A stretch of DNA of 64,000 bases from Nitrospirota bacterium (GTDB lineage: Bacteria > Nitrospirota > UBA9217), in the NCBI GenBank assembly GCA_963796285.1, contig CAWCKW010000001.1, forward strand, positions 193-64,192, written 5' to 3'. This document shows, in pieces, positions 8,344 to 63,317 of the stretch. How positions within the stretch are numbered: position 1 is the stretch's first letter; every line of letters starts with the position of its first letter. The notes under the pieces are model-generated. The model worked only from the letters and a program-made list of their open reading frames with translations. It made no database searches and had not been told where the DNA came from. Position numbers and translations under genes: made by a program.

Positions 8344-8807
8344 GCTCTCTCCTTATAAGGTTTATATCTTGTGGTCGAATGCTCGACCCTGCTTTAATTC
8401 AGTGAATCCCATATTCTGGCGTCCACTGTTCTCCCTACCGTCATGTTAGCGGACGTCTTCTGCTTCTCTAATGTTTTTTCCATTCCCAGTCGCTTAACTG
8501 AAAAACCGACATACCTGCATCCTTCTCCTTCTTTGGGGCATTCCGCTCCACAGGGGATGAGCAGTGAACGGCTGCGTGGCAAAGAAGACGGTGATCTTGA
8601 GCAACAGCGGGTGGATGGCTTGTGGCTGCCGTGATGCCGGGCAGCAGAAGGCTTTAGGCAACGGCGAAATCCGTCAGGAAGAGAAAGACGAGGGGGTTTT
8701 TCAGTGGCGTGACGCGTAGGCTCAGCACGCTTCCGATGCATGAACTGATCAGAACGAGGCAATGACCGTACTTGCGGCATACTTGGGTTCTCGAGGCCGA
8801 AGAGGCG

Positions 8808-46740: not shown

Positions 46741-46780
46741 AAAAACAAGGGGTCATCGATCTGATGACCCCTTGTTTTAT
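46741..46780. terminator. Bidirectional rho-independent terminator between doxX and typA.
   Basis: 11-bp stem caaggggtcat / atgaccccttg, flanked by an A-run on one side and a T-run on the other. Confidence 0.8.
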
Positions 46781-46816: not shown

Positions 46817-48637
<1,821 letters not shown>

Positions 48638-54208: not shown

Positions 54209-54240
54209 ACAAAAAAGCAGGCGGTTTATGCCGCCTGCTT
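54209..54240 (-). terminator. Rho-independent terminator for the Ala/Lys-rich protein gene.
   Basis: aagcaggcgg / ccgcctgctt 10-bp stem, followed on the minus strand by a T6 run. Confidence 0.75.
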
Positions 54241-60079: not shown

Positions 60080-60529
60080 ATGAAAAAATCCACACCGATA
60101 AAAGTGATGTTTCTCTGCACCGGCAATGCCTGCCGGAGCCAGATGGCAGAAGGTTTTGCCAGAGCATTGGGAAATGGATTGATCGATGCTTACAGCGCCG
60201 GTATCATAGCAGCAGGAGTTCACCCCCGCGCGATCGCGGTAATGAAAGAGCTCAACATTGATATATCGCGCCAGAAATCGACGGTGATCGATGAGAAACT
60301 GCTGAAGACCATGGACGTGGTCATCACCCTCTGCGGTAACGCCGAAGAAGCTTGTCCGAGGACGCCGCCGGAGATCAAAAGGATCCATTGGCCGATCAAC
60401 GATCCGGTCGGGACTTTGGGTTCAGAGGTGAGGATCATGAAGGAGTTTCGGCGGGCCAGAGATGAGATCAGAAATAGGGTGGATGATTTCATCAACAAGC
60501 TTCTGACGCATGAGGGCAAGGGGGCTTGA
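60080..60529 (+). CDS. arsC: Arsenate reductase, LMW-PTP (thioredoxin-coupled) type.
   Basis: VMFLCTGNACRSQMAEG (CX5R P-loop), and downstream LCGNAEEACP with the relay Cys residues. Confidence 0.85.
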   Translation: MKKSTPIKVMFLCTGNACRSQMAEGFARALGNGLIDAYSAGIIAAGVHPRAIAVMKELNIDISRQKSTVIDEKLLKTMDVVITLCGNAEEACPRTPPEIKRIHWPINDPVGTLGSEVRIMKEFRRARDEIRNRVDDFINKLLTHEGKGA

Positions 60530-60661
60530 ATTAAAACCGCGTTTGATCGAAAAAGGTCGTCAACGAAAAAAACTATTGCGATTGTCCGAAGAGATGGGTA
60601 ATATATGAAGACAAATAATATCTGAGTTCAGGTACTCAGACAAAGAAGGAGGAAGTTGAGA

Positions 60662-60967
60662 ATGGTAAGTTTGACGGACAGTGCTATAGGCAAGTTCAAG
60701 GAAACGGTTGCTAAGCAGGGAACTGCTGGAGACGGCGTCAGGATATTCGTTGTCCCGGGCGGTTGAAGCCCCTCTTTGGCTATGGACATAGCCAAAGCAG
60801 CCCTGAAGGGAGATACGACCCTTGAGTTACAGGGATTGAAGCTGTTTCTCGAAGAGCGCGCCAGCGACATGCTGATGAGCACGATGATCGATTTTCAGGA
60901 AGGGCAGGGTTTTGTGCTTTCGGGCATGCAACCAAGCTCTTGCGGTTCTTCCTGCAGTAGTTGTTGA
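60662..60967 (+). CDS. HesB/IscA-like selenoprotein (Sec at codon 35, UGA 60764-60766).
   Basis: AAGGAGGA RBS (60646-60653) 8 nt before the ATG. MVSLTDSAIGKFKETVAKQGTAGDGVRIFVVPGG-U-SPSLAMDIAKAALKGDTTLELQGLKLFLEE...SCGSSCSSC. The listed ORF 60776-60967 is in the same frame as ATG 60662. A hairpin follows the UGA. Confidence 0.8.
60774..60797 (+). promoter_or_regulatory. SECIS-like hairpin.
   Basis: Perfect 10-bp stem CTTTGGCTAT / ATAGCCAAAG with loop GGAC. The stem starts 7 nt after the UGA and the loop starts 17 nt after it. Confidence 0.7.
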
Positions 60968-60991
60968 CCATATCGACATGAGATAATTTCA

Positions 60992-61027
60992 ACCGCTGTC
61001 CTGTTCATCGGGACAGCGGTTTTTTTG
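60992..61027 (+). terminator. Rho-independent terminator after the HesB-like gene.
   Basis: accgctgtcc / ggacagcggt 10-bp stem followed by a T7 run. Confidence 0.85.
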
Positions 61028-61365
61028 TTCTCAAGCTGTATTTCTTCGATCCTTTCGAGGTATTCTGCCTCAAGTAATAAATACCTTCCCCATTTTTGCT
61101 AAAATACAAGAGAGATGTCTTGTCATTCAAATATCGGCTTTGATTACGTCGCAACCGGTGAGGACGCTTGTGGGCTCGATGCTCGTGGTGATGGTGACGA
61201 AACGATTGGGGTATTGATGCTTCGAATAAATGTTTCTCAGTGACCATAGAAAGGACAGGGAGAATATATTCATGTATAATTTAAGTATCTTCCTGGGCTG
61301 ACTAAGAAAGCATGATACAGATGCATTGAAGGAACGATGCCTCCGGGGAATGCAGGATATCTGGC

Positions 61366-62106
61366 ATGATTGAAATCAATAATTTGACAATCAGCGTCGA
61401 AGGGAAAAAGATTCTCAATGGTGTGAATCTCACTATCGGGGACGGAGAGACCGTTGTCCTGTTCGGTCCGAATGGATCTGGAAAGACCTCGCTCCTGAAA
61501 ACGATCATGGGTATGCCGCAGTTCAAGGTGGAATCGGGAACCATCATTTACCGGGGCAATGAGATAACAGCGCGCAGTCTTGACGAACGCGCCCGGCTCG
61601 GGATCGGCATGGTATATCAGAATCCTCCGGCGGTCCGGGGGGTGAGGCTTAAAGAAATTCTTCGCATCTGCATGGAAAAGAACGGCACCTACACGGAGGG
61701 GCGGATCAGCGAGGCCGCGGAGAAATTGAACCTCACCGATTTTTTGGACAGAGACATTAATCTGGGCTTTTCCGGCGGAGAGCTCAAGCGGTCGGAACTT
61801 CTCCAACTGTTTGCCCAAAACCCCGAGTTCGTGATGCTTGATGAGCCTGATTCGGGCGTGGACCTGGTCAATATCAATCTGGTGGGTATCGCGATCAATG
61901 AGCTGCTTGAAAAAGATAAACGGAAAGACAAGAGAATCAAGGCGGGGCTGATCATAACGCATGCCGGTTACATCCTGGACTATGTGAATGCGGACCGGGC
62001 ATATGTCATGCTGGACGGTGCCGTGACCTGCTCGGGAAATCCGAGAGACGTTCTGGAGGACATACGAACGAAAGGATTTAAGGGGTGTATGCAATGCCGG
62101 AAATGA
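61366..62106 (+). CDS. sufC: Fe-S cluster assembly ATPase SufC.
   Basis: GPNGSGKTSL, LNLGFSGGELKRSELLQL, MLDEPDSGVD. Confidence 0.9.
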   Translation: MIEINNLTISVEGKKILNGVNLTIGDGETVVLFGPNGSGKTSLLKTIMGMPQFKVESGTIIYRGNEITARSLDERARLGIGMVYQNPPAVRGVRLKEILRICMEKNGTYTEGRISEAAEKLNLTDFLDRDINLGFSGGELKRSELLQLFAQNPEFVMLDEPDSGVDLVNINLVGIAINELLEKDKRKDKRIKAGLIITHAGYILDYVNADRAYVMLDGAVTCSGNPRDVLEDIRTKGFKGCMQCRK

Positions 62107-63317
62107 ATATTAAGGAAAAGGCAAAAGGGGCAGAGAAAAAACCCGCTGCCATCGGTCCGGATATCGATCTTTCCGCGTATTCCAATTCGGCGGAGGAACA
62201 CGGTGAGATCCAGCGATTACAGGGACTCCCAACAGAGGTGCGGGAGAGGTCTGCCACGGTGGGTATGGATGCGGAGGAGGCATGCAGGGCGGGGTCATTC
62301 TTTCAGATGGACCATTCTGTTATTCTCTCAACGGCCCTTCAAAGCGGCCTTGAGGTGATGAGTATCACCGAAGCGCTCAACAAATACGATTGGCTGAAAG
62401 ACTACTGGTGGAAGGCCGTGCAGGTGGAGACGGATAAATATACCGCTCAGGCGGAGTTGAAACAGAACCATGGCTATTTTCTAAGGGCGTTGCCCGGAGC
62501 ACGGGCAGAATTTCCGCTACAGGCATGCCTCTACATGACGCGGGAAGGATTGGCGCAGAACGTACATAATATTGTCATTGCCGAGGAAGGCTCAGAGCTT
62601 CATATTATCACGGGCTGTACAACAGCGCCGCGCGTGAGCACCGGACTCCATGTCGGCATCTCAGAGTTCTACGTGAAGAAGAACGCAAAAGTCACCTTTA
62701 CCATGATCCATAACTGGGCCGAGGGTGTTGCCGTTCGTCCGAGGAGCGGAACGATCATTGACGAGAACGGTGTTTTCATGAGCAACTATATTTGCATGAG
62801 ACCGGTAAAAAGCCTGCAGACGTACCCAACCGCATACTGCATCGGCGAGAACGCCACCGTGAGATACAATACCATCCTGGTAGCGCCGGAGGGATCTCAG
62901 ATGGACGTGGGTTCACGGGTTTTCCTGCGGGCAAAGGGCAGCCGGGCGGAGGCCGTTGCGCGGACCATTACGAAAGGGGGCGATATTGTGTCGAGAGGTT
63001 GTCTCGTCGGGGAGGTCCCGGGGGTCAAAGCGCACCTGGAGTGCCGGGGACTTATTCTTTCTGAACGCGGGACGATCCTCGCCATACCCGAGCTCGATGC
63101 CAGAGTGGGCGGCGTCGACATGTCCCACGAAGCGGCTGTGGGAAAGATCGCGGAGGCAGAGATCCAGTACTTGATGTCACGGGGGCTGACCAGCGATGAA
63201 GCGACAGCCGCGATCGTCAGAGGTTTTCTTGATGTTGAGATAAAGGGCCTGCCGGAGCATCTCAAGGCAGAGATCAAAAAGGCGCTCCGGACGGGAGAGG
63301 GAAAGGGGCTCCTGTAA
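62094..63317 (+). CDS. sufB: SufB/SufD-family Fe-S cluster assembly scaffold.
   Basis: The C-terminal core HEAAVGKIAEAEIQYLMSRGLTSDEATAAIVRGF is typical of SufB. The gene overlaps the sufC stop. Confidence 0.85.
   Translation: MPEMNIKEKAKGAEKKPAAIGPDIDLSAYSNSAEEHGEIQRLQGLPTEVRERSATVGMDAEEACRAGSFFQMDHSVILSTALQSGLEVMSITEALNKYDWLKDYWWKAVQVETDKYTAQAELKQNHGYFLRALPGARAEFPLQACLYMTREGLAQNVHNIVIAEEGSELHIITGCTTAPRVSTGLHVGISEFYVKKNAKVTFTMIHNWAEGVAVRPRSGTIIDENGVFMSNYICMRPVKSLQTYPTAYCIGENATVRYNTILVAPEGSQMDVGSRVFLRAKGSRAEAVARTITKGGDIVSRGCLVGEVPGVKAHLECRGLILSERGTILAIPELDARVGGVDMSHEAAVGKIAEAEIQYLMSRGLTSDEATAAIVRGFLDVEIKGLPEHLKAEIKKALRTGEGKGLL

What the first reader, a model, noticed from the sequence alone, without database searches (positions are those of the whole stretch)
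60662..60967. HesB/IscA-like selenoprotein hidden by an in-frame UGA, with a perfect SECIS-like hairpin, directly upstream of sufCB
What the sequence shows:
- ATG 60662 has a strong AAGGAGGA RBS and opens a frame that reaches TGA at 60764-60766.
- The only ORF the six-frame track reports here (60776-60967) is in exactly the same frame, 114 nt from the ATG.
- The joined 101-aa product has the IscA/HesB layout. The UGA falls in VVPGG-U-S, where A-type carriers have GGGCSG (E. coli IscA Cys35; here it is residue 35). The C-terminus carries a Cys cluster, SCGSSCSSC.
- Seven nt after the UGA there is a perfect 10-bp stem with a GGAC loop (60774-60797). The loop starts 17 nt after the UGA. This is the geometry of bacterial SECIS elements (fdhF-type, G-rich apical loop).

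From memory, a HesB-like selenoprotein family exists (TIGR01911), so the family is probably known. The gene would still be missed or truncated by standard callers. It also establishes that this organism decodes Sec, which matters for every other TGA stop in the genome.
Basis: partly seen in the sequence, partly recalled or inferred. Interest (0 to 1): 0.75.

Follow-up and report, generated by a model that had tools for sequence, protein, structure and literature searches.

The report
Hidden selenocysteine IscA/HesB-like gene
A small iron-sulfur-carrier-like gene is read through an internal UGA as selenocysteine with the help of a conserved RNA hairpin; the kind of protein is already known, but gene callers cut this Nitrospirota branch in two.

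Summary
Window 60662-60967 (+) is one 101-codon gene with an in-frame TGA at codon 35 (60764-66).

- **TGA conservation.** In 49 loci (47 distinct DNA sequences, almost all Nitrospirota MAGs) the TGA sits at the same place, PGG-TGA-SP(S/T)LAMD. The 34 codons before it and the 5 codons between it and the next ATG are conserved as protein while varying at synonymous sites.
- **Hairpin.** The hairpin after the TGA meets all four published bacterial SECIS criteria. Its core, UGGCUAU-GGAC-AUAGCCA, is frozen even at synonymous sites.
- **Position 35.** It aligns with the first cluster-ligand Cys (Cys35) of E. coli IscA, and more distant homologues carry Cys there.

- Only 7 of the 10 stem pairs are conserved.
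- The gene has its own conserved promoter and a strong terminator, so it neighbours the sufC/sufB-like pair but is not in an operon with it.
- The protein does not hit TIGR01911 and scores below the cutoffs of NF038090, TIGR00049 and PF01521. It is therefore a separate branch of the IscA/HesB superfamily.

Public records hold only fragments of about 61 aa or 34 aa. The selABCD genes could not be checked because the source contig is only about 65 kb. Overall this is a new member of a known kind, of modest interest.

The parts
60576..60604 (+). Conserved sigma-70-type promoter: A-tract, -35 TTGCGA (60576-60581), 17-nt spacer, -10 TAATAT (60599-60604) with TG upstream
   Evidence: By my reading of the aligned upstream regions, the same A-tract/TTGC(G/A)A/TGGTAnnAT arrangement is recognisable in most of the 49 loci. 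The consensus scanner did not report it, because it matches only 8 of 12 hexamer positions. Function is inferred.
60619..60642 (+). 5'UTR hairpin (TATCTGAGT-TCAGGT-ACTCAGACA) between promoter and RBS
   Evidence: Inverted repeat found. CTGAG...CTCAG arms with a variable loop recur in many loci. Role unknown.
60646..60653 (+). Shine-Dalgarno AAGGAGGA, 8 nt before the ATG
   Evidence: an (A/G)GGAGG motif precedes the ATG in virtually all loci. No comparable motif precedes the internal ATG at 60782.
60662..60967 (+). Complete coding sequence of the 101-residue IscA/HesB-like selenoprotein (stop TGA at 60965-60967)
60764..60766 (+). In-frame TGA = Sec35, aligned with the first cluster-ligand Cys of A-type carriers
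   Evidence: TGA is invariant in 47 of 47 distinct sequences. It aligns with Cys35 of E. coli IscA, chain 1s98. Cys occupies this position in distant homologues.
60777..60794 (+). Conserved SECIS core: 7-bp stem UGGCUAU/AUAGCCA with GGAC tetraloop
   Evidence: Invariant apart from two wobble-compatible single changes. Normalised synonymous entropy is 0.08 here against 0.70-0.73 in the rest of the gene. It meets all four bSECIS criteria.
60774..60797 (+). Window-specific extension of the SECIS stem to 10 perfect base pairs
   Evidence: -11.9 kcal/mol. The outer pairs are not conserved: pair 12/31 forms in 22 of 47 sequences and pair 11/32 in 12 of 47.
60991..61031 (+). Intrinsic terminator: 13-bp stem with 8 G-C pairs, followed by a T-run
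   Evidence: A below-threshold Rfam match (BcKCsr2) reflects only this terminator shape.
60080..60529 (+). Upstream neighbour: thioredoxin-type arsenate-reductase-like LMW phosphatase (ArsC-like)
   Evidence: TIGR02691 scores 168.4 bits against a cutoff of 174.3. A homologue has its best tblastn hit within 4 kb of the TGA in 32 of 49 loci, upstream in every listed case. LMWPc genes also lie near the divergent members L054 and L056.
61366..63317 (+). Downstream neighbours: SufC-like ATPase (61366-62106) and SufB/SmsB-like scaffold (62085-63317), overlapping each other
   Evidence: TIGR01978 scores 191 bits (cutoff 212.8). NF052511 SmsB scores 211 bits and TIGR01980 scores 182 bits, both below cutoff. 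A SufC-like gene lies within 4 kb downstream in 32 of 49 loci.

Best explanation
Positions 60662-60967 (+) hold one gene for a 101-residue protein of the IscA/HesB (A-type Fe-S carrier) superfamily.

**How the recoding works.** The ribosome reaches UGA at codon 35 (60764-66). The hairpin immediately downstream (conserved core 60777-60794, tetraloop GGAC starting 17 nt after the UGA) acts as a bacterial SECIS. It recruits SelB-GTP-Sec-tRNASec, so selenocysteine is inserted instead of terminating. Translation then continues to the real stop, UGA at 60965-67.

**What the protein probably does.** Sec35 takes the place of the first of the three conserved cluster-ligand cysteines of A-type carriers. 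The C-terminal SCGSSCSSC tail supplies the remaining thiolate ligands. The protein therefore most likely binds and hands on iron or an Fe-S cluster, or another soft metal or metalloid, through a selenolate/thiolate site. It probably does so together with the neighbouring SufC/SufB-like minimal assembly pair.

**Transcription.** The gene is transcribed on its own, from a conserved promoter to a strong terminator.

**Shown versus inferred.**
- Shown: one reading frame under protein-level selection across the TGA; a constrained SECIS-type hairpin; superfamily homology; the Sec/Cys correspondence.
- Inferred: SelB dependence, that Sec rather than another residue is inserted, and the biochemical role.
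For: 1. TGA is conserved at the identical position in 49 loci (47 distinct DNA sequences), with no indel in the 34 upstream codons.
2. Codons 1-34 are conserved as amino acids but vary freely at synonymous sites: mean normalised synonymous entropy is 0.73 over 21 conserved degenerate codons. For example, Gly25 uses 4 codons, Arg27 uses 5 and Pro32 uses 4.
3. The codons between the TGA and the downstream ATG behave as translated sequence: Pro37 is CCN (4 codons), Ser38 is TCN (4 codons) and Leu39 is YTG.
4. A Shine-Dalgarno motif precedes ATG 60662 in essentially all loci. None precedes the internal ATG.
5. The hairpin core is frozen. Synonymous entropy is 0.08 for codons 40-45 and 0 for codon 36, against 0.70 downstream. 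The only stem changes seen keep pairing as G.U: C28 to U, and A24 to G.
6. All four bSECIS model criteria quoted in PMC13188914 are met.
7. More divergent members show the same picture. They are 45-64% identical in the C-terminal part and come from different gene neighbourhoods, yet they carry the TGA and the same hairpin core, with loop GGAC or GGGU.
8. Position 35 aligns with Cys35 of E. coli IscA and with the GGCSG Cys of Aquifex and Haemophilus homologues. Full-length homologues at 43-47% identity have Cys there, in a CC(G)PS motif.
9. TGA is an ordinary stop elsewhere in the window: 34 of 78 long open frames end in it, and this gene's own stop is TGA. The code is therefore not a TGA-sense code.
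10. HesB-like selenoproteins are an established family (PMC1794560; PMC13188914). selB and selC have been described in Nitrospirae (PMC8124441).
11. A SufC/SufB-like pair lies within 4 kb downstream in 32 of 49 loci, even where that pair is of a divergent type.
Against: - No selA, selB or selD gene and no tRNA-Sec was found in the window or in 0.79 Mb of related loci. The source contig is only about 65 kb, so the Sec-decoding trait of this genome is not shown.
- No compensatory (double-sided) covariation supports the stem, because it is invariant. The case rests on synonymous-site constraint.
- Rfam gives no SECIS hit.
- The protein scores below every curated family cutoff.
- The structure prediction was too poor to place Sec35 next to the C-terminal cysteines (pLDDT 54.8).
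- The Fe-S role is by homology and neighbourhood only. Divergent members sit next to ArsR-type regulators, ArsC-like, HypC and thioredoxin genes instead of suf genes.
- The gene is separated from sufC by a terminator.
Confidence: 0.9

Rival explanations
1. The UGA is recoded with the help of the hairpin, but the residue inserted is cysteine, always or when selenium is scarce. The carrier would be a tRNA-Sec-mimicking selC* tRNA-Cys, or mis-charged tRNA-Sec. The product would then be an ordinary three-Cys A-type carrier.
For: selC* tRNA-Cys genes have been reported in anaerobic Nitrospirae and Thermodesulfovibrio, where they may act as opal suppressors (PMC5389517). The aligned residue in distant homologues is Cys.
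Against: In that paper selC* co-occurs with a complete Sec system in the genomes that carry selC. A TGA kept in all 47 distinct sequences, with no TGY variant in the clade, argues that Cys is not equivalent there. No such tRNA lies in the window or loci.
Confidence: 0.05
2. The TGA is a true stop. The locus then encodes a 34-aa peptide and a separate 61-aa protein starting at Met41, as public annotations have it, or it is a decaying pseudogene. The hairpin would have another role.
For: Gene callers split it this way in many assemblies: products of about 61 aa and about 34 aa. Met41 is invariant.
Against: - The reading frame, the length (34 codons) and the amino-acid sequence upstream of the TGA are conserved in 49 loci, with free synonymous change.
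- The five codons between the TGA and Met41 evolve as coding sequence.
- There is no Shine-Dalgarno motif before Met41.
- The two halves together make one IscA fold match spanning residues 3-98.
- Neither half alone reaches significance comparable to the whole.
- A pseudogene would not be preserved across about 47 species-level genomes.
Confidence: 0.02
3. The gene is a selenoprotein as described, but it is not an Fe-S carrier. It would be a selenol/thiol-based metalloid-binding or redox protein, for example handling As(III) or a similar soft metalloid. It would work with the adjacent ArsC-like reductase under ArsR-type control.
For: - An ArsC-like LMW phosphatase lies close upstream (best hit within 4 kb) in 32 of 49 loci.
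- In the divergent members, L054 neighbours an LMWPc gene, HypC and thioredoxin_3; L055 neighbours an ArsR-type (HTH_5/HTH_20) regulator; and L056 neighbours an ArsR-type HTH_5 regulator, HypC and an LMWPc gene. None of them has suf genes nearby.
- Cys forms carry a vicinal CC pair in addition to the Cys-rich tail. Such motifs are typical of soft-metal sites (my own knowledge; not tested here).
- A small HMA-domain protein lies upstream in the relatives L001, L002 and L051.
- A terminator separates the gene from sufC.
Against: Every sequence-based comparison points to IscA, ErpA and SufA. The SufC/SufB-like pair is a neighbour as often as ArsC is (32 of 49). There is no experimental or structural evidence for metalloid binding.
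Confidence: 0.25

Closest known systems
HesB-like selenoprotein family (TIGR01911 HesB_rel_seleno; NF038090 IscA_HesB_Se), as listed in Zhang et al. 2006 (PMC1794560) and the 2026 review (PMC13188914)
   Same: Both are small proteins of about 100 aa in the IscA/HesB superfamily. Both have one Sec encoded by an in-frame UGA at the position of the first conserved Cys, an in-ORF bacterial SECIS just downstream, a Cys/Ser/Gly-rich C-terminus, and Cys-containing homologues elsewhere. Both occur in anaerobes.
   Different: - The window protein gives no TIGR01911 hit at E <= 1 and scores 37 bits against the 85-bit cutoff of NF038090.
- None of 34 clade members, and none of 9 Cys relatives, reaches either cutoff.
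- The local motif is GG-U-SPS rather than the UxGP listed for TIGR01911.
- The clade is essentially confined to Nitrospirota MAGs. That phylum is absent from the text of the 2006 survey.
A-type Fe-S carriers IscA, SufA and ErpA (PF01521, TIGR00049; PDB 1s98, 1r94, 2d2a, 1nwb, 2apn)
   Same: The fold-level sequence match covers residues 3-98 (E = 3e-11 with the clade profile). Residue 35 equals Cys35 of E. coli IscA. C-terminal Cys ligands are present, and the gene neighbours suf-type assembly genes.
   Different: Sec replaces the first Cys. SPSLA follows it instead of SG(F/Y). The C-terminus is C-x3-C-x2-C (or CxC at the very end in relatives) rather than the canonical CGCG-x-SF. Scores are below the TIGR00049 cutoff (44.5 against 58.8) and marginally below the PF01521 cutoff (26.1 against 26.3).
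Bacterial SECIS consensus model (bSECISearch, as summarised in PMC13188914) and the E. coli fdhF SECIS
   Same: A hairpin lies inside the coding region just 3' of the UGA, with a small apical loop starting with GG. The spacing of 17 nt lies within the 16-37 nt range, the stem has 7-10 bp, and the MFE is -7.5 to -12.4 kcal/mol.
   Different: The loop is GGAC (GGGU in some relatives), not the GGUC I recall for fdhF (from memory; not checked here). There is no bulged U in the conserved core. SelB binding is untested.

Membership tests
Bacterial SECIS (consensus model quoted in PMC13188914) | Apical loop of 3-9 nt and upper stem of 4-16 bp | tested here: met
   Loop GGAC (4 nt). The stem is 10 bp in the window and 7 bp are conserved in 47 sequences.
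Bacterial SECIS (consensus model quoted in PMC13188914) | At least one G in the first two loop positions (mostly G[G|U]) | tested here: met
   GG is invariant in 47 of 47 sequences. It is also GG in the divergent members L053-L056.
Bacterial SECIS (consensus model quoted in PMC13188914) | [quoted passage not shown] | tested here: met
   17 nt (60767-60783), identical in all loci.
Bacterial SECIS (consensus model quoted in PMC13188914) | Minimum free energy <= -7.5 kcal/mol | tested here: met
   The conserved 7-bp core gives -7.5, exactly at the limit. The window's 10-bp hairpin gives -11.9, and the stretch from the UGA to +34 gives -12.4.
Bacterial SECIS (functional definition) | Binds SelB and directs Sec insertion at the upstream UGA | not testable with these tools
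   This needs a reporter or binding assay. The indirect support is synonymous-site freezing of the hairpin.
Rfam SECIS families | Covariance-model hit at or above the gathering score | tested here: not met
   No hit in the whole window at gathering threshold. No SECIS hit at E <= 10 in 60600-61050. Whether Rfam holds a model suited to in-ORF bacterial SECIS elements was not established.
TIGR01911 HesB_rel_seleno | HMM score of at least 66.35 bits | tested here: not met
   No hit at E <= 1 for the window protein with U replaced by C. The model is in the library: it hits the Cys paralogue of L049 at 33.6 bits. Only 3 of 34 clade members hit it at all.
NF038090 IscA_HesB_Se | HMM score of at least 85 bits | tested here: not met
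   37.0 bits, end-to-end (1-100 of the protein against 1-101 of the 101-position model). The best E-value among the 34 A2 members is 1e-13, which is the value of the L049 Cys paralogue (51.4 bits), so none reaches 85 bits. The highest score seen among the Cys relatives is 63.5 bits (P0140).
TIGR00049 / PF01521 (IscA/HesB Fe-S biogenesis superfamily) | HMM score at or above the curated cutoff (58.8 bits / 26.3 bits) | tested here: inconclusive
   - The window protein scores 44.5 against 58.8, and 26.1 against 26.3, which is just under.
- 30 of 34 clade members match PF01521 at E <= 1e-3.
- Close relatives P0001 and P0003 carry a precomputed PF01521 hit.
- The clade profile hits solved IscA, ErpA and SufA chains at E = 3e-11 to 3e-5.

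Superfamily homology is secure, but the curated thresholds are not formally reached by this sequence.
A-type Fe-S carrier | Three conserved ligand cysteines (C35, C99, C101 in E. coli IscA) | tested here: inconclusive
   The first position is occupied by Sec35. The C-terminus has C94, C98 and C101, all invariant in the clade, but the spacing is C-x3-C-x2-C rather than C-x-C. Many relatives do end in CSC. Cluster binding was not tested.
Selenoprotein (Sec-decoding trait) | Genome encodes selA, selB, selC (tRNA-Sec) and selD | not testable with these tools
   None was found in the 64-kb window or in 0.79 Mb of related loci. The only GTPase hit is TypA/BipA-like. The source contig is about 65 kb. 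The literature reports selB and selC in Nitrospirae (PMC8124441).
Selenoprotein (comparative definition) | In-frame UGA aligned with Cys in homologues, with coding conservation on both sides | tested here: met

The most novel reading that the evidence does not exclude
This Nitrospirota clade and its divergent relatives may be a distinct, apparently always-Sec lineage whose real job is not classical Fe-S carriage. It could instead handle a soft metalloid or a selenium/sulfur species through a selenolate plus Cys-rich site, together with ArsC-like reductases under ArsR-type control. Alternatively it could deliver a Se-ligated cluster to the minimal SufBC/SmsCB-type machinery. The near-absolute nucleotide freezing of the SECIS, of the AGC codon after the UGA and of a G at +44 could also mark a longer SelB or regulatory RNA structure than the standard model.
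Probability: 0.15. Interest if true: 0.6.

Novelty: new member of a known kind. Interest (0 to 1): 0.35.

Why it matters
- **Annotation.** Public records hold this gene only in pieces. These are a 61-aa 'hypothetical protein' (HYA86655.1), a 61-aa JGI 'IscA', stray 34-aa ORFs, or a product with Trp at position 35 where a caller used genetic code 4. A model for this clade would repair the annotation in the 240 clusters that matched; nearly all of the 120 listed are about 61-aa truncations.
- **Decoding.** The gene is strong indirect evidence that these soil and groundwater Nitrospirota decode UGA as Sec. That bears on other TGA-interrupted genes in the same genomes.
- **Biology.** It places a selenol at a metal or cluster ligand position, next to a minimal SufBC-type system and an ArsC-like reductase. 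No function has been established for HesB-like selenoproteins. A clade with no Cys variant among its 47 distinct sequences here is a good place to ask what Sec does there that Cys cannot.

Tried and rejected
- **Rfam.** The whole window at gathering threshold gave nothing. The local region at E <= 10 gave only a below-threshold match (BcKCsr2, 26.8 against 40 bits) that reflects the terminator shape, plus microRNA noise.
- **Sec machinery.** ARAGORN on the window and 49 loci found no tRNA-Sec. I ran tblastn with E. coli SelA, SelB and SelD sequences written from memory, used as probes only. The single hit was window 46817-48637 (-), which reads as a TypA/BipA-type GTPase and not SelB.
- **Extending the genome.** Exact-protein look-ups found only a 97%-identical 65-kb contig (L051). 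Three other window proteins are not on record.
- **Structure.** The allowed alignment (P0001, which has Trp at position 35, with a shallow N-terminal alignment) gave pLDDT 54.8. The model was discarded and no fold search was run.
- **Other selenoprotein genes.** A brute-force list of TGA-joined open frames in the window was too noisy to use.
- **Lower stems.** Two candidates could each explain the invariant AGC codon: GCC(C) after the UGA pairing with (G)GGC at +44..+47, or GGC of codon 34 pairing with GCC at +4..+6. Neither shows covariation, so the choice is unresolved.
- **Rejected readings.**
  - Sequencing error: 47 independent distinct sequences all have TGA.
  - A TGA-sense genetic code: TGA ends many long ORFs, including this gene.
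  - Membership of TIGR01911 or NF038090: scores are below the cutoffs.
Full report
**1. Observation**

- AAGGAGGA lies at 60646-60653 and the ATG at 60662.
- An in-frame TGA lies at 60764-60766, which is codon 35.
- The same frame stays open to the stop TGA at 60965-60967.
- The joined product is MVSLTDSAIGKFKETVAKQGTAGDGVRIFVVPGG-U-SPSLAMDIAKAALKGDTTLELQGLKLFLEERASDMLMSTMIDFQEGQGFVLSGMQPSSCGSSCSSC.
- The hairpin CUUUGGCUAU-GGAC-AUAGCCAAAG occupies 60774-60797. It starts 7 nt after the UGA, and its loop starts 17 nt after the UGA.

The hairpin is unlikely to be chance.
- Perfect hairpins of at least 10 bp with small loops are rare in the window: 3 are found against 0.65 expected in first-order Markov random sequences with the window's transition frequencies.
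- A strict combined pattern was run over 0.79 Mb, both strands. It required an in-frame TGA with open frame on both sides and a hairpin of at least 7 bp with a GGNN tetraloop 16-30 nt downstream. It hit only this gene family.
- The local folding energy alone is unremarkable (z = -1.66).

**2. Is the TGA read through?**

A protein search with the joined sequence (U written as C) returned 240 clusters. Of the 120 listed, nearly all are 60-63 aa and start at Met41.

The two 'full-length' hits have Trp at position 35. For one of them (L003) the codon is TGA, so a gene caller had used code 4.

A scan of one genome per species (GTDB representatives) gave 47 loci. Nearly all are labelled Nitrospirota or Nitrospirae MAGs.

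In 49 loci in all (47 distinct DNA sequences):
- The TGA is at the identical place, PGG-TGA-SP(S/T)LAMD.
- The upstream part is always 34 codons, starts with ATG and is preceded by a Shine-Dalgarno motif.

Codon statistics show translation on both sides.
- Over codons 1-34, 21 conserved degenerate codons have a mean normalised synonymous entropy of 0.73, and none is frozen. The value is 0.70 for codons 46-91.
- The codons between the TGA and the next ATG also evolve as coding sequence: Pro37 is CCN, Ser38 is TCN and Leu39 is YTG.

Sequencing error, a pseudogene, or two independent small genes cannot explain this.

TGA is a normal stop elsewhere in the window, including for this gene itself. 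A TGA-sense genetic code is therefore excluded.

**3. The hairpin**

Within an alignment whose other parts are on average 73% identical at the DNA level, positions +13 to +30 after the UGA are invariant: UGGCUAU-GGAC-AUAGCCA. The exceptions are A24 to G in three sequences and C28 to U in one, and both keep a G.U pair.

Synonymous sites are frozen in this stretch.
- Ala40 is always GCU, Asp42 always GAC, Ile43 always AUA and Ala44 always GCC.
- Lys45 is AAA in 43 of 47 sequences.
- Ser36 is always AGC out of six possible codons.
- The normalised entropy is 0.08 for codons 40-45.

The three outer pairs of the window's 10-bp stem are not conserved, so the conserved element is a 7-bp stem.

I fetched four more divergent members (L053-L056). 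They are truncated calls starting at residue 41, three of them 47-56% identical to the query, and they lie in other gene neighbourhoods. They again have the TGA and the same core. The loop is GGAC or GGGU, and again only wobble changes occur in the stem.

The element meets all four constraints of the published bacterial SECIS model, quoted in PMC13188914.
- Loop of 3-9 nt and stem of 4-16 bp.
- G in the first two loop positions.
- Spacing of 16-37 nt (here 17).
- MFE <= -7.5 kcal/mol (here -7.5 for the core and -11.9 for the window's hairpin).

There is no compensatory covariation, because the stem does not vary. Rfam gives no hit.

Two possible short lower helices involve the invariant AGCC after the UGA. 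They could not be told apart.

**4. What the protein is**

With U written as C, the protein matches several models.

| Model | Score (bits) | Cutoff (bits) |
|---|---|---|
| TIGR00049 | 44.5 | 58.8 |
| SufA, ErpA, IscA models | below cutoff | – |
| NF038090 IscA_HesB_Se (end-to-end) | 37 | 85 |
| PF01521 | 26.1 | 26.3 |
| TIGR01911 | no hit | 66.35 |

- Across 34 clade members, all match TIGR00049 and NF038090 below cutoff, 30 match PF01521, and only 3 touch TIGR01911.
- A profile of the clade hits solved A-type carriers: Aquifex IscA 1nwb (E = 3e-11), Haemophilus HI1723 2apn, E. coli IscA 1s98 and 1r94, and SufA 2d2a.
- Residue 35 aligns with Cys35 of E. coli IscA.
- An exhaustive HMMER search of 1.84 billion representatives found full-length homologues at 43-47% identity. 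They carry Cys at that position inside a CC(G)PS motif. None of them reaches the NF038090 or TIGR01911 cutoffs either.
- A Cys paralogue also exists in a Nitrospirota MAG (L049).

The protein therefore belongs to the IscA/HesB superfamily. Its Sec replaces the first ligand Cys, as in the known HesB-like selenoproteins. It forms a branch that the two curated HesB-like selenoprotein models do not capture.

The local motif is GG-U-SPS, against the UxGP listed for TIGR01911. C94, C98 and C101 are invariant in the clade.

**5. Surroundings**

The gene has its own transcription signals.
- By my reading of the aligned upstream regions, most of the 49 loci show a conserved promoter: an A-tract, TTGCGA, 17 nt, then a TGGTAATAT-type -10 element. 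The window positions are 60576-60604.
- A 5'UTR hairpin with CTGAG/CTCAG arms follows at 60619-60642.
- A 13-bp intrinsic terminator lies at 60991-61021.

It is thus its own transcription unit.

Upstream lie an ApbE-type gene and an ArsC-like LMW phosphatase. Downstream lies an overlapping SufC-like and SufB/SmsB-like pair.

Across the 49 loci:
- ArsC-like has its best hit within 4 kb, upstream in every listed case, in 32.
- A SufC-like ATPase is within 4 kb downstream in 32.
- The SufC/SufB pair comes in two very different sequence types, which argues for a functional link rather than mere recent synteny.

In the divergent members the neighbours are different: ArsR-type regulators, LMWPc, HypC and a small thioredoxin.

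**6. Mechanism and rivals**

- **Best reading (0.9 for the recoding and family assignment).** This is a SelB/SECIS-dependent Sec insertion at codon 35 of an A-type-carrier-like protein.
- **Biochemical role (about even odds).** It would be an Fe-S or iron carrier with a selenolate ligand, working with the SufBC-type pair. This rests on homology and neighbourhood only.
- **Functional rival (0.25).** A metalloid or redox role linked to ArsC and ArsR would fit the gene neighbourhoods of the divergent members.
- **Cys insertion at the UGA (0.05).** This would occur through a selC*-type tRNA-Cys, reported in Nitrospirae and Thermodesulfovibrio (PMC5389517).
- **True termination with two small genes (0.02).**

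**7. What could not be done**

It cannot be run, because the source is a contig of about 65 kb. None of these genes lies in the window or in 0.79 Mb of related loci.

The literature shows selB and selC in a groundwater lineage of Nitrospirae (PMC8124441).

Structure prediction failed for lack of an admissible deep alignment.

**8. Novelty and verdict**

HesB-like selenoproteins have been catalogued since the mid-2000s (PMC1794560) and appear in the 2026 review. The kind is therefore known.

Three things are new here.
- A Nitrospirota-centred branch that falls below every curated threshold.
- No Cys variant appears among its 47 distinct sequences here; Cys forms turned up only in more distant relatives and one paralogue.
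- A SECIS frozen at the nucleotide level.

Public annotation systematically truncates or splits the gene. I rate it a new member of a known kind, with interest 0.35.

Noticed in passing
window 60576-60642: By my reading of the aligned upstream regions, most of the 49 loci show a conserved promoter (A-tract, TTGCGA, 17 nt, TGGTAATAT-type -10). A 5'UTR hairpin with conserved CTGAG...CTCAG arms and a variable loop follows, just before the RBS. It could be a regulatory or stabilising element of unknown role.
   Followed up: partly
window 61165/61166; L004 10507-11960; L001 4960-5813: The two closest relatives (92-93% DNA identity) carry an extra 0.85-1.45 kb between the terminator and sufC. It encodes a thioredoxin-like (WGKGCPHC) protein fused to, or followed by, a membrane domain. 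In L004 the reading frame appears broken. The window lacks this segment.
   Followed up: partly
L054 1670-3272; L055 1850-2626; L056 53-3086: Divergent Sec-containing members of the family sit next to ArsR-type HTH_5/HTH_20 regulators, LMWPc (ArsC-like), HupF/HypC and Thioredoxin_3 genes rather than suf genes. This hints at a metalloid or redox context.
   Followed up: partly
L049 5077-5361 (JBBIKS010000088.1): A Cys-containing paralogue (39% identity; ...GESCCGPSFGLDI..., with the same SCGSSCSSC end) occurs in a Nitrospirota MAG. It is closer to NF038090 and TIGR01911 (51.4 and 33.6 bits) than the Sec clade is, but is still below both cutoffs.
   Followed up: yes
L005 and L010 (both MAG MFD01299.bin.1.15); L008 about 8370-8440: One MAG carries two full Sec copies on different contigs. 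L008 has an extra C-terminal fragment (ESQGFVLTCMQPSSCGSSCSC) about 1.9 kb downstream of its full copy.
   Followed up: no
L018 (labelled Betaproteobacteria MAG); L030 (labelled Syntrophobacter sp. SbD1): Two loci with non-Nitrospirota labels carry the typical Nitrospirota-type gene. The ArsC-like neighbour is present in both, and ApbE and the SufC/SufB-like pair are also present in L018. L030 shares its gene-region DNA (TGA -15 to +54) and its protein with L033 from a Nitrospirota MAG. Mis-binning is probable, rather than transfer.
   Followed up: no
window 46817-48637 (-): A 606-aa translational GTPase was the only hit to a SelB probe. By its sequence it looks like TypA/BipA, not SelB (my reading; not scanned against HMM libraries).
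   Followed up: partly
window 62085-62106: The SufC-like and SufB/SmsB-like reading frames overlap: by 22 nt as listed ORFs, and by about 13 nt with the start called in the relative L051. This suggests translational coupling. Only these two suf-type genes are present, an arrangement like the minimal SmsCB system.
   Followed up: no
window 46747-46773 and 54215-54240: These are the only other perfect hairpins of at least 10 bp in the window. They are probably terminators and were not examined.
   Followed up: no
window 60767-60770 and 60808-60811: The AGC codon right after the UGA is invariant (1 of 6 Ser codons, 47 of 47). The third position of the variable codon 49 is G in 38 of 47 sequences. 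GCCC could pair with GGGC around the SECIS, or GCC could pair with GGC of codon 34. No covariation decides between these.
   Followed up: partly
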